Assembly: GCA_964581815.1 (NCBI GenBank)
Contig: CAZORE010000010.1
Coordinates: forward strand, 34,385 to 98,384
DNA from: an uncultured Streptosporangiaceae bacterium
GTDB taxonomy: Bacteria > Actinomycetota > Actinomycetes > Streptosporangiales > Streptosporangiaceae
Reading direction: 5' to 3'
Length of the DNA: 64,000 bases
This document shows positions 34,878 through 51,458 of the stretch, one piece after another (within the stretch, counting starts at the first letter, position 1; each line of letters begins with the position of its first letter). The translations under genes were made by a program, and so were the position numbers. The notes beneath the pieces are model-generated. The model did no database searches and had not been told where the DNA came from. It was given only the letters and a program-made list of their open reading frames with translations.

Positions 34878-37800
34878 GTGTGCACGCTGCCGGCGACCCT
34901 CGGCCGCGACAGCGGCACCGCGTCGGTGGTTCTTGACGATACCGATGTCTCCCGGCGGCACGCGCGGATCGAGATGGCCGGCAACGAGCTGGTGGTGGTT
35001 GACCTTGACAGCACCAACGGGACTTATGTCAACGACAAGCTCGTGAAACGCCACGTCCTCGTCCCCGGCGATCGAGTGCGCATGGGACGGTACGAGGTGT
35101 CGTGGTCCTTCATTGACTCGAGCTCGACGAGACTCGTCGACCCGGGCCAGTTGACCGCCGCGCGGCGCGTCGCGACCGGGGGCGTGGCGGCCCGGCGCGT
35201 GGTGGAGGCCGCGGAAGCGCACAACAAGCAGGCCGGGCACGAACTTGACGGCTTCCTGTCGCTGGAGCACGGTTTTCTGCCCGCTGAGCAGCCGCTGCTC
35301 GCCTTCCCGGAATCGCACCGGGCCTGGGACGACATGACCGATCAGCTCCCAGACCTGTTCCGGCGGCTGTCCCTGCGCCGGGCGTTCGATGCGATGCCAG
35401 TGCTGGATGCCGCGCCGACGGCCTTGCCTGACCGGTACCTGCTGCGCGCATCGACTTTGCTCGGGGTATTCGCCCACGCCTATCAGTACATGGCGATCGA
35501 TCCGCCGCCCGTGCTGCCGGATTCGCTGCTGCGACCGTGGCGGACCGTTTCGCGCCGGCTCGGCAAGAAGATCCCGGCCGTCTCTTACATCGACCTGTTC
35601 TTCTACAACTGGCGGCTGCGCGACCCAGCAGGCCCGCGGATGCTAGACAACATGGACCTGCTGGTGCCGACCTGGAACAACGCGGCTGAGCGGGTCTTCT
35701 ACCTGGTGACCACTGAATTCGCGATGGGCCTGACCCCGGTCCTTGGCGCCATGCTGAACGCCCAGGAGGCCGTGGTCGCCGACGATCCGGTGGCCCTGGA
35801 GGGAGCGCTGCTGGCCATCCTCGACCAGTTGCAGTACGTGACCCGCACCATTTACCCGCAGATTGATCCCAACCTGCGGGGCAGGTACGCACTCGACCAG
35901 GTGCTGTGGGCCAAGACGGTCGGCACCGCCGGGGTCCCGATCTTCGATGGCGCGCCCAGCCCGAGCGGCACCGCGCAGCCGCAGATCCACGCACTGGACG
36001 CGTTCCTCGAGCGCCAGGACTTCGCGTCGGTCGTCGGCCAGCAGAGCGTCTACCTCGCCGGGTTCTTTCCGCGTCACTGGCAGGAACTCGTGGCCGCCCT
36101 GCGCGAGGTGTCGGTACGCCAGTACATCGAGCGCACCCGCAGCAGCACCTTGCGCGGCGTCTACAACGCGATGCTCGACGCCTACCTGGGCGACCGCGGC
36201 TGGATGGGACTGCACCGAGTCAAGGCGTACGGCTTCCTTGAGGTGGCGTTCAAGGTCGGCCGGCAGGTGACGACCGGCGCCCGGTTCACGGGACTGTTCA
36301 AGGACCGGACCTGGGACAAGGTCGACGACGAGCTGGCCTTTGTCCGCGAAGAGCGCCGACCGCCGGTGGGTCCGCCCGTCGTGTTCGGCACCGCTCGCCG
36401 GGGCCGCGTGGTGACCGCGGAATCTGGTGCCTGGACCGGTTACCTGGACATCGACGTGAGCGGGCAAGGGGTATACCACCTGCCCGGTGACCGGGTCGGC
36501 GTGCTGGCCGAGCACGACCAGGACCTTGTGCACCGCACGGTCGCCGCGCTGCAGGCGACCGGCGACGAACTCGTACGGCTGACTCCGGAATGGAAGGCGG
36601 CGGTCGCCTGCCGGGATGGGTACGGCGAAACCGACGTCCTGCCGCTGCGGACGTTGCTGTCCTTTGCCCAGCTCCGCCCGGTCACTCGCGCGGTGGCGAA
36701 ACGACTGGTGAAGCTGACGGCCGTCGGCGCGTGGCAGCGAGTGGTGGACGCCCGGATGGAGGATCAGTGGGAGCTGTGGGACGTCCTGAACCTGCTGCAC
36801 GCGGGGGGATATGACGTCACCCGGCTATGGAAGGCCGATCCCGGCGAGGACGACGCCTTCTGCGCGGTGATCCCGCCCGAGCCCTTCCGGCTGTACTCGA
36901 TCGCCTCGGCGGCGCCGCCCAGCCAGCCCGCCACCACGCTCCGGCTGGTCGTCGCCGGCCTGAGCTACTCCTCCGCCCAGACGCCCTGGTCATATCCGCG
37001 CGAACGGCAGGGAACGGCTTCGCATTTCCTGCGCCGCGCGAGCGCCGACGGCCGCAGCCGGCTGTCGCTGCAGATCGTCTCCGCCCCGCGGTTCCGGCTG
37101 CCCGCCGATCCCGCGACGCCCGTCGTGATGTTCGCGGCCGGCTCGGGAGTCGCCCCCTTCCTCGGATTCATCGCCGCGCGCACCGGTTCCGGTGAGAACC
37201 GGCTCTACCTGGGGATCAGGACACCAGAAGAATTCGCGGTGCAGGCAGACCTGGACGCAGCGGCCGCCGCGGGCCGGCTGAACCTCAGCGTCGCCTTCTC
37301 CCGCGCCGATGCCGCGGTCAGTTTCGACGGCCAGCGCCACGTTGTCCAGAGCGGGCAGCGGCGCCGGGTCGACGACGTGATCCGCGCCGAGGCAAGCACC
37401 CTCTGGGACCTGCTGCGCCCCACGGACGAGGGCGGACGCGGTGCCTTCGTCTATGTGTGCGGCACCGCCCGGTTCGCGGTCGCCGTGCGCGAGGCACTGG
37501 CCGCCATCGTCCCTGGCGACGGCGCGGAATTCCTCCGCCAGCTGGTGGCCGACGGACGGCTCGGCGAGGACGTCTTCACCACCTATCTCGGTCACGCCCA
37601 GCAGGGTCGTCGCTTCGAGGTATCGGAACTGGCCACCCACAACGCTCCCGGCGAGCCCTACTGGATGGCGATCGGCGGCGCGGTATTCGACGTCACCGAA
37701 TTCCAGCACCTGCACATCGGCGGGGCGCACATCGTCCGCAACCACGTCGGCCTCGACGCGACCGCCGCGTACCGGAAGGTCCTGCACCACGCGCACTCCG

Positions 37801-38609
37801 AAATCGACGCCCAGCTGGCCATGTATGAGATCGGGCATCTGCGCAGGCTTGACTTTGGCGACCGCTGGGGTGTGGTTCTCACCGAAGACGGCCTGCACGC
37901 CATGGCGCTCGAGGAGCTGTTCCGGACCTGGGTGCGGTTCGTGTACCTGCTGGTCGGCATGGAGAACGCGCTGAACGCTGACTACGCGTTCACGACGACG
38001 GTGAGCACCCTGGGGGAGGACGCCAAGGAACTGACGCCCTTCAAGGCGCAGTACGTCATCGAGTCGCACCGGCGGTTCCTCATCAGCTACCTCGACGGCG
38101 TGCTCAACGACGACCTGCGCACCCTGTGGCAGCTCACCGTCGGATTTTGTGAGCCGGGCCTGGACATCCGGTCCTTCGACACCGACCTCGCCGCCGTCTT
38201 GGCACGCCCGGAAGTCGCACTGGTCCGTCGTTCCGTCGGCTCCGTCAAGGAACAGTTGCTCACCGAGGAGGACTTCAGGCGGGTCGCGGCGATGTGCCGC
38301 AGCTACGCGCGCATCGACGTCCAGCTCCTTCGCGACCTGAAGAACGCCGTGCTCGAGGGAATCCGCGCCTTTGAGACGCACGAGGCCGATGTCGTCGAGC
38401 GGGCCGGAGCCACCGTGCTGAACGCGGCGCGCCAGACGCTCGATGTGGTGTCGGCGTATTACCAGCGCCTGGCCGAGTACACGCGCGGCCATGGCATCGC
38501 GGCCGGCGACGCGGTCGAGGAGGTCATCCCGGCCGACCGGGGCATCCCGGGGCACGGCGGCCCGCTGCCTCTTCCCGACTCGATCACCGTTCAGAAGGAG
38601 ACTCCGTGA
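34878..38609 (+). CDS. Fusion: FHA + indoleamine 2,3-dioxygenase-like heme domain + FAD/NADPH reductase + cytochrome b5 + unknown helical C-terminus
   Basis: FHA: GR, SRRH, DLDSTNGT. IDO-like: LLGVFAHAY, PWRTVSRRLG, YIDLFFYNW, GTAQ, GLHRVKAY. Reductase: PGDRVGV, RLYSIASA, GTASHFL, MFAAGSGVAPFLGF, YVCG. b5: VFDVTEF..LHIGG..DAT..Y..VLHH. Confidence 0.82.
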   Translation: MCTLPATLGRDSGTASVVLDDTDVSRRHARIEMAGNELVVVDLDSTNGTYVNDKLVKRHVLVPGDRVRMGRYEVSWSFIDSSSTRLVDPGQLTAARRVATGGVAARRVVEAAEAHNKQAGHELDGFLSLEHGFLPAEQPLLAFPESHRAWDDMTDQLPDLFRRLSLRRAFDAMPVLDAAPTALPDRYLLRASTLLGVFAHAYQYMAIDPPPVLPDSLLRPWRTVSRRLGKKIPAVSYIDLFFYNWRLRDPAGPRMLDNMDLLVPTWNNAAERVFYLVTTEFAMGLTPVLGAMLNAQEAVVADDPVALEGALLAILDQLQYVTRTIYPQIDPNLRGRYALDQVLWAKTVGTAGVPIFDGAPSPSGTAQPQIHALDAFLERQDFASVVGQQSVYLAGFFPRHWQELVAALREVSVRQYIERTRSSTLRGVYNAMLDAYLGDRGWMGLHRVKAYGFLEVAFKVGRQVTTGARFTGLFKDRTWDKVDDELAFVREERRPPVGPPVVFGTARRGRVVTAESGAWTGYLDIDVSGQGVYHLPGDRVGVLAEHDQDLVHRTVAALQATGDELVRLTPEWKAAVACRDGYGETDVLPLRTLLSFAQLRPVTRAVAKRLVKLTAVGAWQRVVDARMEDQWELWDVLNLLHAGGYDVTRLWKADPGEDDAFCAVIPPEPFRLYSIASAAPPSQPATTLRLVVAGLSYSSAQTPWSYPRERQGTASHFLRRASADGRSRLSLQIVSAPRFRLPADPATPVVMFAAGSGVAPFLGFIAARTGSGENRLYLGIRTPEEFAVQADLDAAAAAGRLNLSVAFSRADAAVSFDGQRHVVQSGQRRRVDDVIRAEASTLWDLLRPTDEGGRGAFVYVCGTARFAVAVREALAAIVPGDGAEFLRQLVADGRLGEDVFTTYLGHAQQGRRFEVSELATHNAPGEPYWMAIGGAVFDVTEFQHLHIGGAHIVRNHVGLDATAAYRKVLHHAHSEIDAQLAMYEIGHLRRLDFGDRWGVVLTEDGLHAMALEELFRTWVRFVYLLVGMENALNADYAFTTTVSTLGEDAKELTPFKAQYVIESHRRFLISYLDGVLNDDLRTLWQLTVGFCEPGLDIRSFDTDLAAVLARPEVALVRRSVGSVKEQLLTEEDFRRVAAMCRSYARIDVQLLRDLKNAVLEGIRAFETHEADVVERAGATVLNAARQTLDVVSAYYQRLAEYTRGHGIAAGDAVEEVIPADRGIPGHGGPLPLPDSITVQKETP

Positions 38610-40936: not shown

Positions 40937-42931
40937 TCAGTAGGCGTCGAAGAACGCCTTGACCTCCGGGCCGGCGACCTGGGCGCCGGAGCCGCCGTTG
41001 ACCACCAGGGCCGCGATCGCGACGTCCTTGTCCGGAGCGAAGGCGACCAGCCACGAGTTCGCCTTCTCCTGCCCCTGGACGTCGGCGGTGCCGGTCTTGG
41101 CGTAGACGTCGGGGCCGAAGCCGATGCTGTCGGCGGTGCCCTCGGTGACCACGTCCCGCATCATATCCTTCAGCTGCTGGTCCGTGCTCGCCGGCAGCGG
41201 CGAGGCGGACACCGTCGCGGTTCCGGGAACCAGAACGGGCTGACGGAACTGCCCGGAGTCGACGGTCGCGGCCACCGATGCCATCGCCAGCGGCGAGGCC
41301 GTGAGCTCCCCCTGGCCGAATGCCTCCTCCGCCAGCTCCGATCCCGAGGCGCCGGCGGGAGCGCTGAAGTAGCTGGCCGGCTCGCCAGGAAGGCCGATGT
41401 TCCACGGCTGGTCGAGCCCGTAGTATGTCTGCGCGGTCGACGCCAGCTGCCCGTTCAGCTGCGTCCACCACTGGGAGAACGCGTTGTTGCAGGACTGCGC
41501 GAAGTCGGTGGAGAACGGCGTGCCGGCCGGCTCGGACTCGCCGTTGTCGTTGTTGTACGTGACGCCCTGCACCGTGTACGTCGCCGGGCAGGTGACCGGG
41601 CTGTTCTCGGAAGCCAGCCCGTCGTTGATCAGCGCGGTGGCGGTGATGATCTTCATGGTGGAACCGGGTGGCACCACGGCGGTGAGGGCATAGTCGTTGA
41701 ACTGGGCGTTGTTGGCGATCGCGAGGATGTCGCCGGTGGAGGGCTGGAGCACCGCGATCGCGCTGTCGTCCGCGGCGCTGACGGCGTTGAGCGCGGCCCG
41801 TTCGGCCTGCGGGCTGATCGTAGTGGCCAGCTGGCTGGCTTTCGGCAAGGTAACCGTGGCCTGGCTGCCGGGTACCGCCTGGCCGCCGGAGTCCTCGATC
41901 TGGACGGACAGCCCGGGCGTGCCTGCCTCGGTCGGGGCGTGCCCGGCCAGGAGGCTCGCGATGTGGGCGATGCCGGGGTCGCTGTAGGAGGACAGGGGGT
42001 TGCCCGCGCTGTCGGTGACGGAGGTGCTCTGCGAAGGCACCAGAACGGTGGCCAGGTGCTGGCCGTCGCTGAGGTTAGGCGCGACCACGCTGGGATCCCA
42101 CTCGACGAGCCAGCCCGTTCCGTCCGGCACCTGGTAAGCGGTCAGCGCTGACCGGTAGGACCAGGTGCCGGATTCGGCGCCGGGCGCCGCCGATCCCGCC
42201 ACGGTGGCGCTGAGACTGAACGTGACCGCCTCGGCGGTGGTCGCCGTGCTGACCCCGGTCGCCTGCGCATCGCCAGCCGACCCGGACGCGGTCGCCGGGG
42301 TGCTGCTGACCACGGTTCCGGTCAAGTTCCGCAGGTACAGGTCCTGCGCGTAGGCGGTGAGCGCCGCCTGCGCGGCGGCGGGGTCATCGGTCAAGCCCGC
42401 GGCCTGGCCGATGGCGCCACTCGACCACGCCTGCAGGAAGGCGGTCGTGACCTGCTCCGCGTCCCCGGAAGGAGACTGCGCGGTGGCCTGGAAGCCCGCG
42501 GTGTTGTGCGTGGGGGGCGCGGTGGAGTGGACGCCCGCGGTGTCCTGCGTGCGGGACACCGCGGGCTGCGCGCCCGCGGTGTCCTGGCTGCGGGGCCAGG
42601 CGGTCACGGCGAACGCGCCCGCCGCGATGGCAACAACGGCGACTGATGCCAAGACGATCGCGACGCCGCCCGCCCGCCGGCGTCCGGGCGGCTCAACGTA
42701 CGGCGCCATTCCCGGCAGGAAGTGGGTACCGCCCGGCTCGGGCTCGGTCCCCCGCGGTTCGTCATACGGGCCGCGCTGGCCCGCGTTCCCCGAGGCGCGC
42801 GGCTGCTCCAGCGGTGGCTCATCGTAGGATTCAGTGCCCTGGTCCCGGACCAGCCTCGTCGGCTTGCCACCGGAAAACCAGCGATCCTCGTGTCTTTCGT
42901 AGGGATCGGGATACCAGCCCTGGACCCACAT
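40937..42931 (-). CDS. Penicillin-binding transpeptidase with NTF2-like domain and N-terminal DUF2510-like motif
   Basis: GWYPDP..HEDRWFSG, one TM, PPGSTMK (SxxK), QSCN (SxN), AKTGT. Confidence 0.85.
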   Translation of the reverse strand: MWVQGWYPDPYERHEDRWFSGGKPTRLVRDQGTESYDEPPLEQPRASGNAGQRGPYDEPRGTEPEPGGTHFLPGMAPYVEPPGRRRAGGVAIVLASVAVVAIAAGAFAVTAWPRSQDTAGAQPAVSRTQDTAGVHSTAPPTHNTAGFQATAQSPSGDAEQVTTAFLQAWSSGAIGQAAGLTDDPAAAQAALTAYAQDLYLRNLTGTVVSSTPATASGSAGDAQATGVSTATTAEAVTFSLSATVAGSAAPGAESGTWSYRSALTAYQVPDGTGWLVEWDPSVVAPNLSDGQHLATVLVPSQSTSVTDSAGNPLSSYSDPGIAHIASLLAGHAPTEAGTPGLSVQIEDSGGQAVPGSQATVTLPKASQLATTISPQAERAALNAVSAADDSAIAVLQPSTGDILAIANNAQFNDYALTAVVPPGSTMKIITATALINDGLASENSPVTCPATYTVQGVTYNNDNGESEPAGTPFSTDFAQSCNNAFSQWWTQLNGQLASTAQTYYGLDQPWNIGLPGEPASYFSAPAGASGSELAEEAFGQGELTASPLAMASVAATVDSGQFRQPVLVPGTATVSASPLPASTDQQLKDMMRDVVTEGTADSIGFGPDVYAKTGTADVQGQEKANSWLVAFAPDKDVAIAALVVNGGSGAQVAGPEVKAFFDAY

Positions 42932-43259
42932 GCCCCGACAATATCCGCACCCCGTGAACCGGGGATAGATAACAGTGGTGAACATACGGCTCTCCTCGTA
43001 TTTGTGAGGAGGCTGAGAAAAGGATCTTTGCGCTGAAGCTGCCATTGACCGGGTTGATTGTGATCTTCGCATCCGTGAAATCAAGCCGGCGGCCGGTAAT
43101 TGGAAACATGCCTTCAACAATCGCGGCCTCTTCCAATTACTTGTTGATTTCTCCGTCTCACCAGTCTCGTTAGCAACAGGGACGTGCTTGCGTCCCAATC
43201 CCTTTCGCGTGCGTGTCCGTATAGAAGGTTGTCAGAAGTTATGGGTATTCGCAGGACGA

Positions 43260-46200
43260 ATGCGGGGGCTTATGCGTACGGGCGTTGGGGGCGACGTCAA
43301 CGGCAAGGAAGAACATCGGCCAGGGTCCCGTTGTCGGCTAGACGATCGCCTGCTGACCTGCGACGGCTACGACGACTCGATCAGATGGCGGCCGGTTGAG
43401 CGACTTGAAGACCTGTTCGAGGAGCGCTGCGACTGGCTGCGCCGCCAGGGGCAGGCCGGCCATCTCGCGGTGGACGACCCGGGCGGCTCGCTGACCTATC
43501 CAGAGCTGGACGCGCGGGCGAACCAGCTGGCGCGCTTCCTTATCCGCCAAGGCGTCCGGCCTGGTGACCGAATCGGCCTGCTGTCCGACGTGGCCGTAGA
43601 CGGCTACGTCGGCATGCTGGCGGTGCTCAAGGCACACGCCGCCTTCGTTCCGCTGGACGCCAGCTTCCCCGCGGACCGGGTGGCCTACATCGCCGACGAC
43701 GCCCGGGTCCGGCTGATCCTGACCCGCGCGCACCTCGCAACCAGGCTCGGGCCGCTGGCCAGCCAGGTCCAGCTGGTGTGCGTCGACGAGGCCGAGGGCC
43801 TGATCGGCGCCGAACCCGGTGACCCGCTCACGCCGGATGAGGTGCGGGCGCCGCACGACGAGCTTGCCTACATCATCTACACGTCCGGCTCGACCGGCAG
43901 GCCCAAGGGCGTGGCGGTCGGTCACCCGAGCATCTGCAACTTCGTCCGGGTAGCCGCGGAAGCCTACGGGATCACCTCGGGCGACCGGGTGTACCAGGGG
44001 ATGACGATCGCGTTCGACTTCTCCGTCGAGGAGATCTGGGTCCCGTGGATGTGCTGCGCCACGCTCGTCCCCAAGCCGGCCGGCGGCAACCTGCTCGGCC
44101 TTGACCTCGGCGCGTTCCTCAGGGAGCGCCGGGTGACCGCGCTGTGCTGCGTGCCCACGCTGCTCGCCACGCTGGAAGAGGACCTGCCTGAGCTGCGCTT
44201 CCTGCTGGTGTCCGGTGAGTCGTGCCCGCACGACCTGATCGCCCGCTGGCACCGGCCCGGCCGCCGTTTCCTCAATGTCTACGGCCCGACCGAAGCCACC
44301 GTGACCGCGACCTGGACCGTCGTGCACCCAGACCGGCCGGTGACAATCGGGGTCCCGCTGCCGACCTATTCGGTCATGATCCTCGACCCAGAGAAAGACG
44401 TCGCGCTGGCCCCGGGGACCATGGGCGAGATCGGCATCGCGGGCATCGGGCTTGCTCACGGTTACGTCAACCGGCCCGACCTCACCGAGCGCGCGTTCCG
44501 GCCGGACTTCCTCGGCATCCCCGGCAATCCGTCGGGAAGGATCTACCGCACCGGCGACCTTGGCCTGATCAACGACCAGGGCGAGATCGAGCACCACGGC
44601 CGCATCGACACGCAGGTCAAGATCCGCGGGTACCGCATCGAGCTGACCGAGATCGAATCGGTCCTGCTGGGCGTCCCCGGTATCGCGCAGGCGGTGGTCG
44701 GCACCTGCCGGCCCCATCCCGATGTCGTGGAACTGGTCGCCTACTACAGCCCGCAGCAGAACTTGCCCCCGGTCGACCCTGGACAGGTTTACGAGACCCT
44801 GCGTGAGCTGTTGCCCGCGTACATGGTGCCGGCCTACCTGGAGAAGCTGCAGGCCATCCCGGTGATGCCAAGCGGCAAAGCGGACAGAAAACGCCTTCCC
44901 CCGCCAACCGGTCCGCGCCTGCAGGCCACCGGTGGCGTTCTCGTGGCTCCGGGCAGCGATACAGAACGCGCGCTCGCGGCTGTCCTTGCCAACGTGCTTG
45001 AAGTCGACGAGGTGTCCGTAGACAGCCACTTCTTCGACGAGCTCGGCGCCAACTCGATGCTGATGGCCCGGTACAACGCGGCGCTCCGCGAGCACACCGC
45101 CCTGCCTTCTGTGTCGATGAAGGACATCTACCTGCACCCGACCGTGTGCAAGCTGGCGGCATTGCTCGAGCCGGCGATGCCGTCGCCGCCGTCCGGCGCG
45201 GCCCAGCCTCCGGTGGCACAGCCACCGCCCGTCCTGTCGTCCACCCCGTACCAGCCGGCTCCGCCGCTGGCCGGCCAGCCGTCGGGAACCCCGCATTACT
45301 TCCTGTGCGGTGCGCTTCAGCTGCTGACGGCGGCCGCGGGCATCGCGGGCGGCGCGCTGCTGCTTAATGCCGGCTTCGCCTGGACCCTCGGGGCGCGCGG
45401 CCCCCTTGACGTCTATCTGCGGCTCGTGGCGTTCGGCAGCAGCACCTTGCTCGGCCTCGGCGTGCTCCCGATCGGGATCAAGTGGCTGCTCATCGGCCGG
45501 TGGAAGCCAGCGAGCATCCGGGCCTGGAGCCTCGGCTACTTCCGGTTCTGGCTGGTCAAGACCGTGGTCGTGGCCAATCCGATGGCCCACCTGTTCATCG
45601 GGACGCCGCTGTACACGCTGTACCTGCGCGCACTCGGCGCCAGGATCGGCCGCCGGGCCACCATCCTCACGCAGCACATCCCGGTCTGTACCGACCTGCT
45701 GTTCATCGGCGCGGACAGCCTCATCACCAAGGACACGTACATCAGCTGCTACCGCGCCAGGGCGGGGCTGATCGAGACTGGTTACGCTTCCGTCGGCGCG
45801 AGCGCGTTCATCGGCGAGCACTCGGTCCTGGACATCAAAACCGCGGTCGGCGAGCGGGCGCAGCTCGGGCACGCGTCCGCCCTGCTCACCGGCCAGATGG
45901 TCCCGCCGGGGGAGATCTGGCACGGATCCCCCGCCGAACGCGCCCCGGACGGCACCGTCTACCAGGTCGTGCCACCCGCCCGCTGCGGCGCGCTGCGCCG
46001 GGCCTGGTCCTGCGTCCCCCGGTTGCTGCTGCTGCTGGCCGTGGCCGGGCCCCTGGAGGCCGGGGTCGCGAGCCTGCTGGTAACGCACTCCCGCGCGCTG
46101 CTCTCCCTGCTCGGCAGCCCGAGGGTGACGAGCTGGCCGTACTACCGGGAGGCGCTGACGGGCGGCGCGGCCGTGGTCTTCGGCCTGACGCTGGCCGGCC

Positions 46201-47477
46201 TGCTCATCGTCGGCCCGGCCGGGCGGCTGCTCAGCCGCCTCCTGCGGCCGGGGCGCGTCTACCCCCTGTACGGTCTGCGGCACGGCGTGCTGCGCGCCGT
46301 CACCCGGATGAGCAACGTCAAGTTCTTCAATGCGCTGCTTGGCGACAGCTCGGCCATCGCGGGATACCTGAGCTACCTCGGCTACCGGCTCAGGCCCGTG
46401 CACCAGACGGGCTCGAACTTCGGCATGGAGGTCAAGCACGACGTGCCGACGCTCAACACCGTCGGCACCGGGACGCTGGTCTCCGACGGGCTGTCCATGA
46501 TCAACGCGGAGTTCTCCGCCAGCTCGTTCCGCGTCGCGCCCGTCGTCATCGGGAGGAACAACTTCCTTGGCAACGGCATCGCCTACCCGCCAGGCGGCCG
46601 GACCGGCGACAACTGCCTGCTCGGCACCAAGGTCATGATCCCGGTCTCCGGGCCGGTCCGGGAGGGAGTCGGCCTGCTCGGCTCGCCCTGCTTCGAGATC
46701 CCCCGCTCGGTCAGCCGCGACCGGCAGCTCGGCGGGCTCAGCGGGACCCCCGTCCAGCGGACGCTGCTGCGGGCCAAGAACCGGCACAACGCCGCCACGA
46801 TGATGCTGTTCCTGCTCGTGCGCTGGCTGTATCTCAGCGGGGTCCTCCTCATCGCGATGCTGCCGCTGGACGGCGGCTCCACCCTGGCAGGCACGCTTGG
46901 CAGCGCAGGCACGGTGGTGGCCGAACTGGTCTTCACCACTGGTTACTTCGTGCTTGTCGACCGGGCGGTCACCGGGTTCCGCGCGCTGCGGCCGAAGTCC
47001 TGTTCCATCTACCAGCCGGCTTTCTGGCGGCACGAGCGGTTCTGGAAGGTTCCGTCGATCGCCTACCTCCCGATGTTCAACGGCACTCCGTTCAAGGGCG
47101 TCATCTGGCGACTGCTTGGCGTGCGGATCGGCCGCCGGGTCTTCGACGACGGCTGCTCGATCATCGAGCGGAGCCTGGTCAGCGTGGGCAGCTACGCCAC
47201 GCTCGCCGCCGGGAGCATCATCCAGTGCCATTCCCTCGAGGACGGCGCCTTCAAGTCCGACTACACCGTCATCGGGACCGGATGCAGCATCGGGAGCGTC
47301 GCCTTCGTCCATTACGGGGTCACGATGCGCGAAGGCTCCGCGCTCGACGCGGACTCTTTCCTGATGAAGGGCGAGGACGTGCCGCCAGAAGCGTTCTGGG
47401 GCGGCAACCCCGCCCTCGAGCGCGGGCTGCGCGCCGTGCCGCAGCGTGCCCCCCAGGCCATCACCGCTGCCAAATAA
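43260..47477 (+). CDS. Pls-type membrane NRPS-like poly(amino acid) synthetase (A-T-TM/three terminal domains)
   Basis: A-domain YTSGSTGRPKG, FDFSVEE, YGPTE, YRTGD, KADRK; T-domain FFDELGANS; TM segments alternating with LGARIGR / LGVRIGRRV hexapeptide-like domains; no C or TE domain. Start uncertain (43188-43272). Confidence 0.9.
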   Translation: MRGLMRTGVGGDVNGKEEHRPGSRCRLDDRLLTCDGYDDSIRWRPVERLEDLFEERCDWLRRQGQAGHLAVDDPGGSLTYPELDARANQLARFLIRQGVRPGDRIGLLSDVAVDGYVGMLAVLKAHAAFVPLDASFPADRVAYIADDARVRLILTRAHLATRLGPLASQVQLVCVDEAEGLIGAEPGDPLTPDEVRAPHDELAYIIYTSGSTGRPKGVAVGHPSICNFVRVAAEAYGITSGDRVYQGMTIAFDFSVEEIWVPWMCCATLVPKPAGGNLLGLDLGAFLRERRVTALCCVPTLLATLEEDLPELRFLLVSGESCPHDLIARWHRPGRRFLNVYGPTEATVTATWTVVHPDRPVTIGVPLPTYSVMILDPEKDVALAPGTMGEIGIAGIGLAHGYVNRPDLTERAFRPDFLGIPGNPSGRIYRTGDLGLINDQGEIEHHGRIDTQVKIRGYRIELTEIESVLLGVPGIAQAVVGTCRPHPDVVELVAYYSPQQNLPPVDPGQVYETLRELLPAYMVPAYLEKLQAIPVMPSGKADRKRLPPPTGPRLQATGGVLVAPGSDTERALAAVLANVLEVDEVSVDSHFFDELGANSMLMARYNAALREHTALPSVSMKDIYLHPTVCKLAALLEPAMPSPPSGAAQPPVAQPPPVLSSTPYQPAPPLAGQPSGTPHYFLCGALQLLTAAAGIAGGALLLNAGFAWTLGARGPLDVYLRLVAFGSSTLLGLGVLPIGIKWLLIGRWKPASIRAWSLGYFRFWLVKTVVVANPMAHLFIGTPLYTLYLRALGARIGRRATILTQHIPVCTDLLFIGADSLITKDTYISCYRARAGLIETGYASVGASAFIGEHSVLDIKTAVGERAQLGHASALLTGQMVPPGEIWHGSPAERAPDGTVYQVVPPARCGALRRAWSCVPRLLLLLAVAGPLEAGVASLLVTHSRALLSLLGSPRVTSWPYYREALTGGAAVVFGLTLAGLLIVGPAGRLLSRLLRPGRVYPLYGLRHGVLRAVTRMSNVKFFNALLGDSSAIAGYLSYLGYRLRPVHQTGSNFGMEVKHDVPTLNTVGTGTLVSDGLSMINAEFSASSFRVAPVVIGRNNFLGNGIAYPPGGRTGDNCLLGTKVMIPVSGPVREGVGLLGSPCFEIPRSVSRDRQLGGLSGTPVQRTLLRAKNRHNAATMMLFLLVRWLYLSGVLLIAMLPLDGGSTLAGTLGSAGTVVAELVFTTGYFVLVDRAVTGFRALRPKSCSIYQPAFWRHERFWKVPSIAYLPMFNGTPFKGVIWRLLGVRIGRRVFDDGCSIIERSLVSVGSYATLAAGSIIQCHSLEDGAFKSDYTVIGTGCSIGSVAFVHYGVTMREGSALDADSFLMKGEDVPPEAFWGGNPALERGLRAVPQRAPQAITAAK

Positions 47478-47510
47478 GGCGCCGCCACCCACGAACAGGA
47501 GCATCACCCG

Positions 47511-48764
47511 ATGGACATCTTCGAAGCACGCGAATCCGCCGTCCGCAGCTACTGCCGCATCTGGCCAACGGTGTTCGGCCGGGCCGCGGGCAGCCGGCTG
47601 TACGACGAGCACGGACGAGGTTACCTGGACTTCTTCTCCGGGGCCGGCGCGCTCAATTACGGGCACAACAACCCGGTGCTCAAGGACCCCCTGTTGAGGT
47701 ACCTGGCCGACGACGGCGTGATCCACTCACTCGACATGCACACGGTCGCCAAGCGTGAATTCCTGACGGTCTTCGATGAGCTGATCCTGCGTCCCCGGCA
47801 GCTGGACTACCGGGTGCAGTTCCCCGGCCCCGGCGGCGCGAACGCCGTTGAGGCGGCGCTGAAACTGGCCCGCAAGGCGACGGGCCGCACGGAGATCATC
47901 ACGTTTACCAACTCCTTCCACGGCATGACACTCGGGGCGCTGGCGGTCACCGGCAACGCCTTTCACCGCGCGGGGGCGGGAATCCCGCTGAGCCATGCGA
48001 CCCCGGTTCCGTTCGGTGAGTCCCTGGATTGCGACGACCGGATACCAGATTTCCGGTGGCTCGAGCGCCTGCTCGTGGACAGGGGCAGCGGCCTGGACGC
48101 CCCGGCGGCGGCGATCGTGGAGACCGTGCAGGGCGAGGGCGGTATCAACGTCGCGAGCGCGGAGTGGCTGCGTCGCCTGTCCAGCCTGTGCCGTGAGCAT
48201 GGCATCCTGCTCATCGTTGATGACGTCCAGATGGGCTGCGGCAGGACGGGCCCGTTCTTCAGCTTCGAGCCCGCGGGGATCACCCCGGACATCGTGTGCC
48301 TCTCGAAGTCCATCAGCGGGTACGGGCTGCCGCTTGCGCTAACGCTGATCCGGCCCGACCTGGACATCTGGGCACCGGGCGAGCACAACGGCACGTTCCG
48401 CGGCATCAACCCCGCGCTGGTGACCGGCACCGCCGCGCTGCGCGCCTACTGGGGCGACGACACCCTGGAGCGCGGCACGCATCTCAAGGGCAAGCGGATC
48501 ATGGCCGCCCTAACCGCGACCGCCGGCTCTGTCCCTGGCCCCCCGATCCTGGTGCGCGGCCGCGGCATGGCCTGCGGCCTGGCGTTCGCCGATGGCGACC
48601 TGGCAAGCAAGGTGTCCGCCGCCGCCTTCGAGGCCGGCCTGCTCGCGGAGACCGCGGGCTCGCGCGGCCAGGTGGTCAAGCTACTGCCGCCGTTGACCAT
48701 CACCGACGCGGAACTGGACGAGGGCCTGGCACTCCTGGACGAAGCCGTCCGCGCGGTCTGCTGA
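47511..48764 (+). CDS. ectB: Diaminobutyrate-2-oxoglutarate transaminase
   Basis: ESAVRSYCR.WPTVF, DFFSGAGALNYGHN, QFPGPGGANAVEAALKLARK, ETVQGEGG, CLSKSISGYGLP, GEHNGTFRG. Confidence 0.93.
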   Translation: MDIFEARESAVRSYCRIWPTVFGRAAGSRLYDEHGRGYLDFFSGAGALNYGHNNPVLKDPLLRYLADDGVIHSLDMHTVAKREFLTVFDELILRPRQLDYRVQFPGPGGANAVEAALKLARKATGRTEIITFTNSFHGMTLGALAVTGNAFHRAGAGIPLSHATPVPFGESLDCDDRIPDFRWLERLLVDRGSGLDAPAAAIVETVQGEGGINVASAEWLRRLSSLCREHGILLIVDDVQMGCGRTGPFFSFEPAGITPDIVCLSKSISGYGLPLALTLIRPDLDIWAPGEHNGTFRGINPALVTGTAALRAYWGDDTLERGTHLKGKRIMAALTATAGSVPGPPILVRGRGMACGLAFADGDLASKVSAAAFEAGLLAETAGSRGQVVKLLPPLTITDAELDEGLALLDEAVRAVC

Positions 48765-48887: not shown

Positions 48888-49379
48888 ATGAAGCCGCCGT
48901 TTGAGAAGCTCGTGGAGCGCAGCGGTGGCGTGGTCCTCCGGGTCTGCCGGGTTATGCTCAGCGCGCACGACGCCGAGGACGCGTGGTCGGAGACGTTCCT
49001 CGCCGCGCTGCGCGCCTACCCGGAACTGCCCGACGACGCGAACGCCGAGGCGTGGCTGGTCACGATCGCGCGCCGCAAGGCCATCGACGTGCTCCGGGCG
49101 CGCAAGCGGCAGCCGGCCCCCATCGGTGAGGTACCCGAGGCGCCGACCACGCTCGGCGTGCCGGGCGCGGAGGACGGCGACCTGTGGCAGGCGGTCGCGG
49201 CGCTGCCAGACAAGCAGCGCCAGGCGGTGGCTTACCACTATGTCGCGGGCCTGGCGTACGCCGAGATCGCCGGCATCCTCGGGGGGACTAGCGGCGCGGC
49301 GCGCCGGGCCGCCGCCGACGGCGTGAAGAACCTGCGGAAGAACTATCCGGGCGCGGCCACGGAAGGAGCGCCATCGTGA
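48888..49379 (+). CDS. ECF RNA polymerase sigma factor
   Basis: HDAEDAWSETFL, AWLVTIARRKAID, LPDKQRQAV..HY..GLAYAEIA. Confidence 0.9.
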   Translation: MKPPFEKLVERSGGVVLRVCRVMLSAHDAEDAWSETFLAALRAYPELPDDANAEAWLVTIARRKAIDVLRARKRQPAPIGEVPEAPTTLGVPGAEDGDLWQAVAALPDKQRQAVAYHYVAGLAYAEIAGILGGTSGAARRAAADGVKNLRKNYPGAATEGAPS

Positions 49380-49975
49380 ACATGTCAGCCAACCATTTCG
49401 CGTCGCCGGACGACGCGGAAACCCTGTCCAGGCTGCGAGACAGGCTTGGGCTCGCCGCTGAGGCACAGGGCCTGCTCGACGTCGCTTACACGACGGTCGA
49501 CTCGCCGGTCGGGCCGCTCCTGCTAGCGGCGACGCCGCACGGGCTGGTGCGCGTGGCCTACGACGTCGAGGACCACGACCAGGTGCTCAGTACCTTGTCG
49601 CGCCGGATCAGCCCGCGCGTCCTGCGCGCGCCGCGGCGGCTTGACGTGGCCGCGCGCGAGCTCGACGAGTACTTCGGCGGGCGGCGCCGGGTCTTCGACC
49701 TGCCGCTTGACCGGTCCCTGTCCGCGGGGTTCCGTCAGCTGGTGCAGCGGCACCTGCCCGAGATCGAGTACGGGCAGACCCGAACCTACGGGCAGCTCGC
49801 GCAGCTCGTCGGTAACCCGAGGGCGGTCCGGGCGGTCGGCACCGCCTGCGCCACCAATCCGCTTCCCGTCGTGGTGCCCTGCCACCGGGTGCTGCGGGCC
49901 GACGGCAGCGTCGGTGGCTACATCGGCGGGTCCAGCGCGAAGCAGGCGCTGCTCCGGCTGGAGGCGGCGGCATGA
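49376..49975 (+). CDS. ogt: Methylated-DNA--protein-cysteine methyltransferase
   Basis: DSPVGPLLL, IEYGQTRTYGQLA, RAVG.ACATNPLPVVVPCHRV; GTGA-coupled to the sigma gene. Confidence 0.92.
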   Translation: MNMSANHFASPDDAETLSRLRDRLGLAAEAQGLLDVAYTTVDSPVGPLLLAATPHGLVRVAYDVEDHDQVLSTLSRRISPRVLRAPRRLDVAARELDEYFGGRRRVFDLPLDRSLSAGFRQLVQRHLPEIEYGQTRTYGQLAQLVGNPRAVRAVGTACATNPLPVVVPCHRVLRADGSVGGYIGGSSAKQALLRLEAAA

Positions 49976-50733
49976 GCGGGCTTGCGCGCGAATCAGTGAG
50001 CACTATGCGGTCCGCGACGAGCACGGACCCGTGGCGGCAGCGGGTCGAGTCAGGGGACTGGAAGTCCATCGCCGCCGAGGTCAACTCCCTCGGCGGCGCC
50101 CTGCTGCCCGAACTGCTCACCGTCGGCGAGGCGGCGCAGATCAGGGAACTCTACGAGCATCACGGGCACTTCCGCAGCACGGTCGACATGGCCAGGCACC
50201 GGTTCGGTGCCGGGGAATACCGCTACTTCAAGGCCCCGTACCCCGAGCCGGTCGAGCGGCTCAAGCAGGCGCTGTACCCGCGGCTGCTGCCGATCGCGCG
50301 TGACTGGGCGGCCAAGCTCGGCCGCCCGGCGCCGTGGCCGGACACGCTGGATGAGTGGCTGCGGATGTGTCACGCCGCCGGGCAGGGCAAGTCGACCGCG
50401 ATCCTGCTCCGCTACCAGGCGGGGGACTGGAACGCGCTGCACCGCGACCTCTACGGCGACCTGGTGTTCCCGCTTCAGGTCGTCATCAACCTGAACGAGC
50501 CGGGGGTCGACCATAGCGGCGGAGAGTTCTTGCTCGTGGAGCAGCGTCCGCGCGCGCAGTCTCGTGGCACGGTTACCACGCTCCCGTTCCGTCACGGCTA
50601 TCTCTTTACCACCCGTGACCGGCCAGTGCGCTCCGCGCGGGGCTGGTCCGCGGCCCCGGTCAGGCACGGCGTGTCTGTGGTCCGCTCCGGCCGGCGGCAC
50701 ACCCTCGGGCTCGTCTTCCACGACGCGGCGTGA
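49972..50733 (+). CDS. 2OG-Fe(II) oxygenase (DUF2086-like)
   Basis: GEYRYF, NALHRDLYG (HxD), GGEFLLVEQRPRAQSRG, VRHGVS, RHTLGLVFHDA. Confidence 0.85.
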   Translation: MSGLARESVSTMRSATSTDPWRQRVESGDWKSIAAEVNSLGGALLPELLTVGEAAQIRELYEHHGHFRSTVDMARHRFGAGEYRYFKAPYPEPVERLKQALYPRLLPIARDWAAKLGRPAPWPDTLDEWLRMCHAAGQGKSTAILLRYQAGDWNALHRDLYGDLVFPLQVVINLNEPGVDHSGGEFLLVEQRPRAQSRGTVTTLPFRHGYLFTTRDRPVRSARGWSAAPVRHGVSVVRSGRRHTLGLVFHDAA

Positions 50734-50775
50734 GCTACACCCTGCTCGGTTCGGACGGCAAGCCGCACCGGGCAT

Positions 50776-50813
50776 GTAAGTCGGCCCGGCGCCTAGGCGC
50801 CGGGCCGACTTAC
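50776..50813. terminator. Perfect 38-bp palindrome between convergent genes, probable bidirectional terminator
   Basis: GTAAGTCGGCCCGGCGCCT followed by AGGCGCCGGGCCGACTTAC. Confidence 0.75.
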
Positions 50814-50832
50814 TGGCGTCAGGCCTTCGGGG

Positions 50833-51372
50833 CTACCAGAGGCCCGCCGCGCTGACCTGTCCCGCCCGCAGCGCCCCGGCGTGCTCGATCTCGAGCAGGG
50901 CGCGCTTGCGGTCCAGGCCGCCCGCGTAGCCGGTCAGCTTGCCCGTGGCGCCGACCACCCGGTGACACGGGACGATGATGCACAACGGGTTGCGGCCGAC
51001 CGCGCCGCCGACGTCCCGTGGCTCCGTTCCGGTGCCCAGGCTGCGGGCGATTTCGCCGTAGGTGGTCGTCTCTCCGTAGGGGATACCGGCGATCAGGTCC
51101 CAGACTCGCCGGTCGAACTCACTGCCGCTGGCCTTCAGCGGCAGCTCGAAGGCGGTGCGGTCGCCGTCTAGGTACTCGGCGAGCTGGCGCGCGACGTCCT
51201 CGAATCCCGCGTCGCTGCGCGGTCCGAACGCTGTCCGGTCCGGCCTTGGCCAGTGCCGTGGGAAGTACAGGCCGGTCACGGCCTCTTCCTCCCGGACCAC
51301 CGTCAGCTCGCCCAGGCTCGTCGCGAGCACCGTGTGCACGGCGGCTGAGGAGTCGCCTGTTGTCGCTGTCAT
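50833..51372 (-). CDS. ogt: Second methylated-DNA--protein-cysteine methyltransferase
   Basis: TSLGELTV, IPYGETTTYGEIA, VGRNPLCIIVPCHRVVG, GYAGGLDRKRALL. Confidence 0.92.
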   Translation of the reverse strand: MTATTGDSSAAVHTVLATSLGELTVVREEEAVTGLYFPRHWPRPDRTAFGPRSDAGFEDVARQLAEYLDGDRTAFELPLKASGSEFDRRVWDLIAGIPYGETTTYGEIARSLGTGTEPRDVGGAVGRNPLCIIVPCHRVVGATGKLTGYAGGLDRKRALLEIEHAGALRAGQVSAAGLW

Positions 51373-51458
51373 CGTCTGCTTCCTTCCGTTGCCTGGCCTG
51401 CGTTTCGGCTCTACCAGGTAGACGTCCCGGAAGGACCGGGCGTGAGGTCTCACATGCC

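What the first reader, a model, noticed from the sequence alone, without database searches (positions are those of the whole stretch)
43260..48764. Pls-type synthetase plus orphan ectB: candidate poly-diaminobutyrate pathway
Seen: an A-T-membrane NRPS-like gene followed 33 bp later by ectB, with no ectA or ectC adjacent. Aligning by eye to GrsA gives the A-domain code D-F-E-C-L-S-V-V-T-K; the acidic residue at 239 suits a diamino acid. Established: Pls-family enzymes make isopeptide homopolymers (poly-lysine, poly-Dab, poly-Dap), and EctB makes L-2,4-diaminobutyrate. Inference: a cationic, possibly antimicrobial gamma-poly-L-Dab producer. No racemase is adjacent, so the L-polymer is more likely.
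Basis: partly seen in the sequence, partly recalled or inferred. Interest (0 to 1): 0.65.

Follow-up and report, generated by a model that had tools for sequence, protein, structure and literature searches.

The report
Two-gene poly-diaminobutyrate synthesis cassette
An uncultured soil actinomycete carries a membrane-bound polylysine-synthetase-type enzyme next to the enzyme that makes diaminobutyrate; the pair most likely makes a positively charged poly-diaminobutyrate chain, a known type of natural antimicrobial polymer, but using a branch of the enzyme family that nobody has yet tested.

Summary
A 1401-1405 aa A-T-membrane synthetase (Pls/PosA family, TIGR02353 636 bits) ends 33 nt before an EctB-type diaminobutyrate transaminase (TIGR02407 616 bits). 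No ectA, ectC, aspartate kinase or Dab racemase lies in the 64 kb.

The interpretation, a gamma-poly-L-Dab producer, is well supported by comparison but not proven.
- The code matches the characterised L-Dab synthetase at 9 of 10 positions.
- Of 73 homologous loci with this code, 67 carry a Dab transaminase within 3 kb. Of 32 loci with Dap-like or other codes (Gly at position 6), none does.
- The DapF-like racemase sits directly downstream only in D-Dab-type loci (3 of 3).

The pathway logic is already published (pldA-dat-ask; pddA-D), so this is a new member of a known kind.

The unexpected part is lineage. The window enzyme is not an orthologue of the characterised Dab synthetases. It belongs to a large, uncharacterised actinobacterial clade. 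Its polymerising domain is only 21-25% identical to every characterised type for which a full-length proxy was available (Lys, Orn, L-Dab, D-Dab, Dap).

Only the two genes are conserved between close relatives. In three relatives they are read as one fused ORF.

The parts
43272..47477 (+). Pls/PosA-family synthetase gene (A-T-membrane polymerising domain). It is 1401 aa from ATG 43272; alternative starts are ATG 43260 (1405 aa, the numbering used here) and TTG 43188.
   Evidence: Gene callers on identical contigs use the 1401-aa start. GC3 is 0.88.
43449..44897 (+). Adenylation domain (residues about 64-546). Specificity code DFECLSVVTK (D253 F254 E257 C296 L316 S318 V340 V348 T349 K540).
   Evidence: PF00501 243 bits, PF13193, TIGR01733 391 bits. 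Code. Solved relatives are 1amu, 7wew and 8g95.
44970..45167 (+). Thiolation (carrier) domain, residues 571-636. The phosphopantetheine serine is Ser599 in the motif LGANSM. A Pro-rich linker follows (residues 637-682).
   Evidence: PF00550 30.5 bits. Sequence. S599 is invariant across the family alignment.
45306..47414 (+). C-terminal membrane polymerising domain, residues 683-1385. It has three transmembrane hairpins (about 684-746, 918-984 and 1183-1235) that separate three hexapeptide-acyltransferase-like subdomains (C1, C2, C3).
   Evidence: TIGR02353 635.8 bits over model positions 2-695 of 695. Hydropathy. Weak left-handed beta-helix hits at three places. Internal C1/C2/C3 cross-matches. 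The 25 family-invariant positions of this domain are retained, e.g. R762, W764, E1303 and H1324.
47478..47510 (+). 33-nt in-frame spacer with a Shine-Dalgarno-like aGGAGc. Loss of the TAA stop fuses the two ORFs.
   Evidence: Fused ORFs P0004, P0007 and P0030 read through this spacer. The metatranscriptome contig at 47363-47573 spans it.
47511..48764 (+). ectB-type L-2,4-diaminobutyrate:2-oxoglutarate transaminase (417 aa). It supplies the monomer from aspartate semialdehyde.
   Evidence: TIGR02407 616 bits (cut-off 552), NF006733 641 bits, PF00202. It co-diverges with the synthetase in relatives.

Best explanation
The two genes form a self-contained operon for a cationic isopeptide homopolymer of L-2,4-diaminobutyrate, most likely gamma-poly-L-Dab.

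Proposed mechanism:
1. EctB transaminates aspartate-beta-semialdehyde, taken from housekeeping Ask/Asd, to L-Dab.
2. The synthetase's A domain adenylates L-Dab. Asp253 binds the alpha-amine, Glu257 binds the side-chain amine, and Phe254 limits chain length.
3. The activated monomer is loaded on Ser599 of the carrier domain.
4. The C-terminal membrane domain, made of three acyltransferase-like subdomains between three transmembrane hairpins, transfers it repeatedly to the side-chain amine of a free monomer or growing chain, and the polymer is released outside the cell.

Shown here: gene content, domain architecture, specificity code, retention of family-invariant residues, conserved linkage to Dab transaminases, absence of a racemase, and transcripts in environmental RNA.

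Inferred: the substrate, its L configuration, the gamma linkage, polymer length, export and antimicrobial role. These rest on analogy with Pls, PldA and PosA.
For: - Family and architecture.
- Code: DFECLSVVTK against the characterised L-Dab code DFECLSAVTK, 9 of 10 positions. The code is invariant in 116 of 120 database homologues at 59-97% identity and in 73 of 80 genome loci.
- Linkage: 67 of 73 same-code loci have a Dab transaminase within 3 kb. It is EctB-type (at least 55% identical to the window's) in 19; the ~40%-identity examples tested are Dat-type. 42 also have aspartate kinase. Among the controls with Gly at position 6, 0 of 29 Dap-like and 0 of 3 other DFEC..G loci have one.
- The same association of code with transaminase recurs in the other superclade (Embleya L081, PddA-type L161) and in proteobacterial DFECISAVTK loci (L120, L122).
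- The transaminase and aspartate kinase are the only recurrent neighbours in 81 loci.
- Close relatives share only these two genes, and the pair co-diverges.
- Three relatives encode the pair as one read-through ORF.
- The PddB-type racemase is present only in D-Dab-code loci (3 of 3), apart from the chimeric ORF L164, and is absent from the window.
- Wetland and soil metatranscriptome contigs at 95-99% identity cover both genes, and one spans the junction.
Against: - There are no biochemical data for any member of this clade.
- Position 7 of the code is Val, against Ala in the L-Dab enzyme and Cys in the D-Dab enzyme; its effect is unknown.
- The enzyme is not an orthologue of PldA or PddA. 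The A domain is 47% identical and the polymerising domain 24-25%, so linkage type, chain length and even the acceptor could differ.
- No pathway-specific aspartate kinase, exporter, hydrolase or resistance gene is present in the window.
- The metatranscriptome evidence is thin: low depth, contigs only, and DNA carry-over is possible.
- The trees are neighbour-joining on about 40 sequences, and the internal support for the window superclade in the A-domain tree is weak (43%).
Confidence: 0.68

Rival explanations
1. The enzyme uses Dab, but its divergent polymerising domain makes something other than free linear gamma-poly-L-Dab. Possibilities include a different linkage or branching, very short oligomers, or transfer of Dab(n) onto another acceptor such as an envelope component.
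For: The C-terminal domain is only 21-25% identical to all the characterised types compared over their full length (Lys, Orn, L-Dab, D-Dab, Dap). Those types cluster together at 100% bootstrap, apart from the window clade. A branched Dap-Dap polymer is reported within the family (PMC10522769, introduction).
Against: TIGR02353 matches end to end at 636 bits. The same TM/C1/TM/C2/TM/C3 layout is present, and all 25 family-invariant positions of this domain are retained. No conserved neighbour suggests an acceptor or a tailoring step.
Confidence: 0.13
2. The polymer is gamma-poly-D-Dab. The A domain would select D-Dab made by a racemase encoded elsewhere in the genome.
For: The code is also 8 of 10 identical to the D-Dab code. 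Position 7 differs from both characterised codes. Only 64 kb of the genome was visible.
Against: In D-Dab-type loci the racemase is immediately downstream (3 of 3). Apart from the chimeric L164, none of the same-code loci has one, and neither does the window. Position 9 is Thr as in the L-Dab enzyme, not Ser.
Confidence: 0.08
3. The A domain activates another diamino acid (L-Dap, L-Orn or L-Lys), and ectB is adjacent for an unrelated reason such as ectoine, a siderophore or diaminopropane.
For: Phe at position 2 is shared with Dap enzymes. A-domain identity to Dap-type enzymes (49-53%) is slightly higher than to the characterised Dab enzymes (47%).
Against: Positions 4 and 6 (Cys, Ser) match Dab codes, not Dap codes (Tyr or Ala, Gly). 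The linkage counts are 67 of 73 against 0 of 32. Two different transaminase types were recruited. Fused ORFs exist. No ectA or ectC is in the window. The Lys and Orn codes differ at 5 or more positions.
Confidence: 0.06
4. The cassette is a silent or decaying remnant with no product.
For: No regulator or exporter is linked. Promoter and terminator scans found nothing informative.
Against: Both ORFs are intact with coding-type GC3. All invariant residues are retained. The identical locus is present in many metagenomes. Environmental transcripts exist. The pair is conserved across relatives at 61-97% identity.
Confidence: 0.05

Closest known systems
gamma-Poly-L-Dab synthetase cluster pldA-dat-ask of Streptomyces celluloflavus (Yamanaka et al. 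2020; context shown in PMC8117764 Fig. 1C; code in PMC10522769 Table S2)
   Same: It is a single-module A-T-membrane synthetase next to a diaminobutyrate:2-oxoglutarate transaminase. The code is identical at 9 of 10 positions. There is no racemase. The predicted product is the same.
   Different: It is not an orthologue. Against the Embleya proxy (L081), the A domain is 47% identical and the polymerising domain 24%, and it sits in a separate clade. The transaminase here is EctB-type (TIGR02407), not Dat-type. There is no aspartate kinase. Code position 7 is Val instead of Ala.
gamma-Poly-D-Dab system PddA-PddB-PddC-PddD of Streptoalloteichus hindustanus (PMC8225329)
   Same: Pls-type synthetase plus a Dab transaminase. 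The code shares DFECLS.V.K.
   Different: The PddB DapF-like racemase is translationally coupled to the synthetase there and in L161-L163; it is absent here. The code differs at positions 7 and 9. The clade is different.
epsilon-Poly-L-lysine synthetase Pls (Streptomyces albulus) and delta-poly-L-ornithine synthetase PosA (Acinetobacter baumannii)
   Same: The domain architecture and the TIGR02353 family are the same. Asp at position 1 and Glu at position 3 bind the diamino acid.
   Different: The codes are DAESIGTVVK (Lys) and DMEHNGTVSK (Orn). A-domain identity is 35-39% and C-terminal identity 21-25%. Their monomers come from primary metabolism, so they have no supply gene.
beta-Poly-L-Dap synthetase (S. 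albulus PD-1, PMC4668381)
   Same: Same family. Phe at position 2 for a short diamino acid.
   Different: The code is DFEYVGTVTK (Tyr at position 4, Gly at position 6). Loci of this type never carry a Dab transaminase (0 of 29).
Ectoine pathway ectABC
   Same: The EctB enzyme is of the ectoine-pathway type and scores above the equivalog cut-off.
   Different: There is no EctA or EctC anywhere in the window. Here EctB is coupled to, and in some relatives fused with, a polymer synthetase.

Membership tests
Pls/PosA family (cationic homo-polyamino-acid synthetases) | A single adenylation domain followed by a carrier domain with a phosphopantetheine serine | tested here: met
   PF00501 243 bits, TIGR01733 391 bits (cut-off 317), PF00550 30.5 bits (cut-off 20.8); Ser599 is invariant
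Pls/PosA family (cationic homo-polyamino-acid synthetases) | C-terminal membrane domain: six transmembrane helices separating three tandem acyltransferase-like subdomains, with no classical C or TE domain | tested here: met
   TIGR02353 635.8 bits (cut-off 423.1) over the full model; three hydrophobic hairpins; weak beta-helix acyltransferase hits in C1, C2 and C3; no C or TE Pfam hit
Pls/PosA family (cationic homo-polyamino-acid synthetases) | Asp at code position 1 and Glu at position 3 (diamino-acid binding mode 1) | tested here: met
   D253 and E257; the criterion comes from PMC10522769 and PMC12042044
Pls/PosA family (cationic homo-polyamino-acid synthetases) | Produces an isopeptide-linked homopolymer | not testable with these tools
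   Needs expression and LC-MS
Characterised gamma-poly-L-Dab synthetase (PldA) orthologue group | Specificity code DFECLSAVTK | tested here: inconclusive
   9 of 10 positions match; Val replaces Ala at position 7
Characterised gamma-poly-L-Dab synthetase (PldA) orthologue group | Falls in the same clade as PldA | tested here: not met
   The PldS fragment and Embleya L081 group with PddA and Dap types (100% bootstrap), apart from the window clade. C-terminal identity is 24% and blastp gives about 100 bits, against 470-790 bits within the window's own clade
Characterised gamma-poly-L-Dab synthetase (PldA) orthologue group | Adjacent Dab transaminase (dat) and aspartate kinase (ask) | tested here: inconclusive
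   A transaminase is present, but of EctB type. ask is absent from the window, although present in 42 of 73 same-code loci
gamma-Poly-D-Dab system (PddA/PddB) | A DapF-like Dab racemase coupled to the synthetase | tested here: not met
   No tblastn hit in the 64 kb; it is present directly downstream in L161-L163
gamma-Poly-D-Dab system (PddA/PddB) | Specificity code DFECLSCVSK | tested here: not met
   8 of 10 positions match
Ectoine biosynthesis (ectABC) | EctB together with EctA acetyltransferase and EctC ectoine synthase | tested here: not met
   EctB is met (616 bits). No EctA or EctC family hit in any scanned ORF of the window

The most novel reading that the evidence does not exclude
The DFECLSVVTK clade is a second, independently evolved lineage of Dab-polymerising synthetases. 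It is widespread in soil actinomycetes, including the Streptomyces violaceusniger group, Amycolatopsis, Pseudonocardia, Arthrobacter, Kocuria and Trebonia-like MAGs. Its highly divergent membrane domain may build a product that differs from known gamma-poly-Dab in linkage, branching, length control or acceptor, which would make it a new natural cationic polymer.
Probability: 0.15. Interest if true: 0.6.

Novelty: new member of a known kind. Interest (0 to 1): 0.38.

Why it matters
Cationic isopeptide polymers such as epsilon-polylysine, poly-Dab, poly-Dap and poly-ornithine are natural antimicrobial, antiviral and cell-penetrating materials. Only a handful of their synthetases have been characterised.

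This locus is a minimal two-gene unit, monomer supply plus polymerase, from an uncultured rhizosphere and wetland actinomycete. It should be easy to express in another host.

It also represents a large clade for which the comparisons here and the searchable literature turned up no tested member. Characterising one member would do three things:
- assign a product to at least 80 species-level genomes;
- test whether the Cys4/Ser6 code signature predicts Dab in two separate lineages;
- show how much the polymerising domain can diverge while still keeping, or changing, its chemistry.

For a specialist the prediction itself is not surprising.

Tried and rejected
- A literature search for the code strings and 'PldS' returned only unrelated 'PLDs' papers. 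Later searches found no paper on this clade.
- The two key ACS Chem Biol papers (Yamanaka 2020 and 2022) are not held. The characterised Dab, Dap, beta-Lys and Lys enzymes were therefore represented by OCR-read fragments from PMC10522769 Fig. S21 and by their nearest genome homologues. The fragment tree confirms that these proxies pair correctly.
- The first bootstrap tree timed out and was redone with numpy distances.
- L164 seemed to be a same-code locus with a racemase. It is a chimeric 2056-aa ORF that mixes a V-type N-terminus with a PddA-type core, and was excluded.
- The sigma-70 promoter and terminator scan was uninformative in this high-GC DNA.
- Neighbour clustering of Dap-type loci gave no strongly conserved supply genes (at most 9 of 34), so no mirror-image control could be built from it.
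- One Pfam call failed on wrong coordinates.
- Ectoine synthesis was considered and rejected (no ectA or ectC). Chance adjacency was also rejected (67 of 73 against 0 of 32).
- Structure prediction was not run, because it could not decide substrate or product.
Full report
**What is there**

The window is 66-75% GC actinobacterial chromosome. It carries rpsF-ssb-rplI-dnaB at 8.2-12.1 kb.

At 43188/43260/43272-47477 (+) lies one long ORF with coding-type codon bias (GC3 0.88). It contains:
- an AMP-binding adenylation domain (PF00501, 243 bits; TIGR01733, 391 bits);
- a carrier domain (PF00550);
- over residues 683-1385, the complete TIGR02353 'Pls/PosA family non-ribosomal peptide synthetase' terminal domain (635.8 bits against a cut-off of 423.1).

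No condensation or thioesterase domain is present.

Hydropathy shows three hydrophobic hairpins at about 684-746, 918-984 and 1183-1235. The three soluble stretches between and after them give weak matches to left-handed beta-helix acyltransferases, and they cross-match one another in BLAST. This is the TM1-2/C1/TM3-4/C2/TM5-6/C3 layout described for epsilon-polylysine synthetase (PMC8117764).

Thirty-one positions are essentially invariant across Lys-, Dab-, Dap-type and window-clade enzymes. All are retained here, including the carrier Ser599 and R762, W764, E1303 and H1324 of the membrane domain.

The TAA stop is at 47475-47477. Thirty-three nucleotides later, and about 9 nt after an aGGAGc ribosome-binding site, starts a 417-aa ORF (47511-48764). 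It scores 616 bits on the EctB equivalog model TIGR02407, cut-off 552.

**Specificity code**

I anchored on the conserved motifs FDxS.EE, VPT, SGE, YGPTE and GK.DRK, and aligned with MAFFT.

Published codes for the characterised family members are (PMC10522769 Table S2):

| Substrate | Code |
|---|---|
| L-Dab | DFECLSAVTK |
| D-Dab | DFECLSCVSK |
| L-Dap | DFEYVGTVTK |
| L-Lys | DAESIGTVVK |
| L-Orn | DMEHNGTVSK |
| beta-Lys | DGESVSVVNK |

- The window matches the L-Dab code at 9 of 10 positions. The only difference is Ala to Val at position 7.
- Asp at position 1 plus Glu at position 3 is the hallmark of the family's diamino-acid binding mode.
- The residue at position 2 tracks substrate length, and Phe goes with Dap and Dab (PMC10522769 discussion; PMC12042044).

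**Surroundings**

- Upstream and divergent: a class-B penicillin-binding protein (40937-43198) and an S8-like protease.
- Downstream: an ECF sigma factor, two Ogt methyltransferases, an 'Oxygenase-NA' protein, then a TetR regulator and an MFS transporter.
- No scanned ORF in the 64 kb matches EctA or EctC.
- tblastn with PddB-type racemases and with an aspartate kinase, both taken from related clusters, finds nothing in the window.

**Comparative test of the interpretation**

Homologues are abundant. 7965 database proteins score E<=1e-50, and 116 of the best 120 (59-97% identity) carry exactly DFECLSVVTK.

I fetched:
- 80 genome loci with the window protein as query;
- 80 loci each with fragments of the L-Dab, D-Dab and Lys enzymes, read from PMC10522769 Fig. 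S21.

For Pls-type loci with at least 1.5 kb of flank on both sides, the counts are:

| Code class | Loci | Dab transaminase within 3 kb | Other |
|---|---|---|---|
| DFEC[LI]S-V-V-T (the window's) | 73 | 67 | 19 are EctB-type (at least 55% identical to the window's); 42 loci also have aspartate kinase |
| Dap-like (DFE[YA]) | 29 | 0 | |
| Other DFEC..G | 3 | 0 | |
| D-Dab code (L161-L163) | 3 | 2 | DapF-like racemase directly downstream in 3 of 3 (PF01678) |

- NCBIfam shows that the transaminases about 40% identical to the window's EctB are the 'dat' type (TIGR00709). This is the type found beside the Embleya L-Dab-code synthetase and in PddA-type loci. Others, in Arthrobacter and in proteobacterial DFECISAVTK loci, are true EctB.
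- Two different Dab transaminase lineages have therefore been recruited to synthetases that share the Cys4/Ser6 signature.
- Unsupervised clustering of all neighbours in 81 same-code loci finds only two recurrent families, the transaminase and aspartate kinase. Nothing else occurs in more than 10 loci.
- The 'no racemase, hence L' argument is supported. No racemase-like gene occurs in same-code loci, apart from one chimeric MAG ORF, L164, that I excluded.

**The cassette as a unit**

- Ten relatives at 61-83% synthetase identity share only the two genes with the window. None of the twelve flanking genes tested is syntenic.
- EctB identity tracks synthetase identity (88-90% at 80-82%, 74-78% at 61-67%).
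- The two ORFs are in the same frame. In three relatives (P0004, P0007, P0030; 83-87% identical) the stop codon is a sense codon, and the gene call runs through the spacer into EctB as a single protein of 1660-1824 aa.
- The identical locus occurs on many metagenome contigs (38 index blocks). DNA runs that hold it come from rhizosphere, moss and lake-water samples.
- The nearest named homologue is from a Trebonia sp. MAG (Streptosporangiales) at 82%.
- Contigs from wetland and soil metatranscriptomes lie on both genes at 95-99% identity, and one (47363-47573) crosses the junction. This is weak but positive evidence for co-transcription in nature.

**Relation to what is known**

The logic 'Pls-type synthetase plus Dab transaminase equals poly-Dab' is already published.
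- The L-Dab cluster is pldA-dat-ask (PMC8117764 Fig. 1C, citing Yamanaka 2020).
- The D-Dab cluster is pddA-pddB(racemase)-pddC(transaminase)-pddD(aspartate kinase) (PMC8225329).

The Embleya locus L081 reproduces synthetase-transaminase-aspartate kinase. The finding is therefore a predicted new producer, not a new pathway.

What I did not expect is the phylogeny. Neighbour-joining trees with 100 bootstraps, pairwise BLAST and a fragment tree that places the published sequences next to my proxies all show that the window enzyme is not an orthologue of the characterised Dab synthetases.

| Comparison with the window enzyme | A-domain identity | Polymerising-domain identity |
|---|---|---|
| L-Dab type | 47% | 24% |
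| D-Dab types | 47% | 23-25% |
| Dap types | 49-53% | 24-25% |
| Lys types | 36-39% | 21-25% |
| PosA (Orn) | 35% | 22% |

- The L-Dab and D-Dab types cluster with the Dap types (100% bootstrap).
- In the polymerising domain, all five characterised types compared group together (100%). The window's clade and some proteobacterial enzymes group apart (94%).
- In the A-domain core fragment tree, the beta-Lys enzyme also falls outside the window's clade.
- The window clade spans the Streptomyces violaceusniger group, Amycolatopsis, Pseudonocardia, Phytohabitans, Arthrobacter, Kocuria and many soil MAGs.
- Neither the published family survey (PMC10522769) nor my literature searches mention the code DFECLSVVTK or a tested member.

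The Cys4/Ser6 code is linked to Dab transaminases in both superclades. That gives two phylogenetically separate replicates of the code-to-substrate inference and strengthens the Dab call. The divergent polymerising domain leaves room for a product that differs in detail.

**Verdict**

- I put 0.68 on 'L-Dab supplied by EctB is activated and polymerised into a gamma-linked cationic homopolymer'. About 0.13 goes to a Dab-based product of different architecture, 0.08 to the D-isomer, 0.06 to another diamino acid and 0.05 to a silent locus.
- It is a new member of a known kind, from an uncharacterised deep clade.
- A specialist would find it a sensible genome-mining target rather than a surprise, hence interest 0.38.

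Noticed in passing
window 34878-38609 (+): A 1243-aa ORF combines an N-terminal FHA domain, an indoleamine 2,3-dioxygenase-like domain, an FNR-type NAD-binding domain and a cytochrome b5 domain. This looks like an unusual self-sufficient heme dioxygenase fused to its redox partners and a phospho-peptide sensor. It is not conserved next to the cassette in relatives.
   Followed up: no
P0004, P0007, P0030; L063 8464-13500: In three relatives (83-87% identical) the synthetase stop codon is a sense codon, and synthetase plus EctB are called as one protein of 1660-1824 aa reading through the 33-nt spacer. Whether real fusion proteins are made, or EctB is still started internally, is unknown.
   Followed up: partly
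L120 (Desulfobulbia MAG), L122 (Sphaerotilus natans): Gram-negative Pls-type synthetases with code DFECISAVTK have an EctB-type transaminase directly upstream. This predicts poly-Dab producers outside the actinomycetes.
   Followed up: partly
L164 6898-13068: A 2056-aa ORF in a Pseudonocardia MAG joins a window-type A-domain N-terminus (AFDFSVEEIWVPW) to a PddA-type core (NCYGPTETTVS), followed by a PddB-like racemase. It is either an assembly chimera or a recombinant.
   Followed up: partly
window 48888-51453: Directly downstream of ectB lies a compact set: an ECF sigma factor, Ogt, an 'Oxygenase-NA' (PF09859) protein and a second, convergent Ogt. It looks like an alkylation-damage repair module under its own sigma factor. 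It is present in the same-species contigs but not in more distant relatives.
   Followed up: no
window 13293-14831 (-): A 512-aa ORF with a TniQ domain lies just beyond dnaB. It may be a remnant of a Tn7-like element inserted in the origin-proximal region.
   Followed up: no
L007 and L027 (same contig CAVRHH010000029.1): One MAG carries two family members about 160 kb apart. One has the window's code and a Dat-type transaminase upstream. The other has code DFECLGTVTK and no transaminase.
   Followed up: no
window 44612-44644: Metatranscriptome depth spikes here (27-32x against about 3x elsewhere) with loose ends on both sides. This is a conserved A-domain core motif matched by transcripts of other NRPS genes, not evidence of high expression of this gene.
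   Followed up: yes
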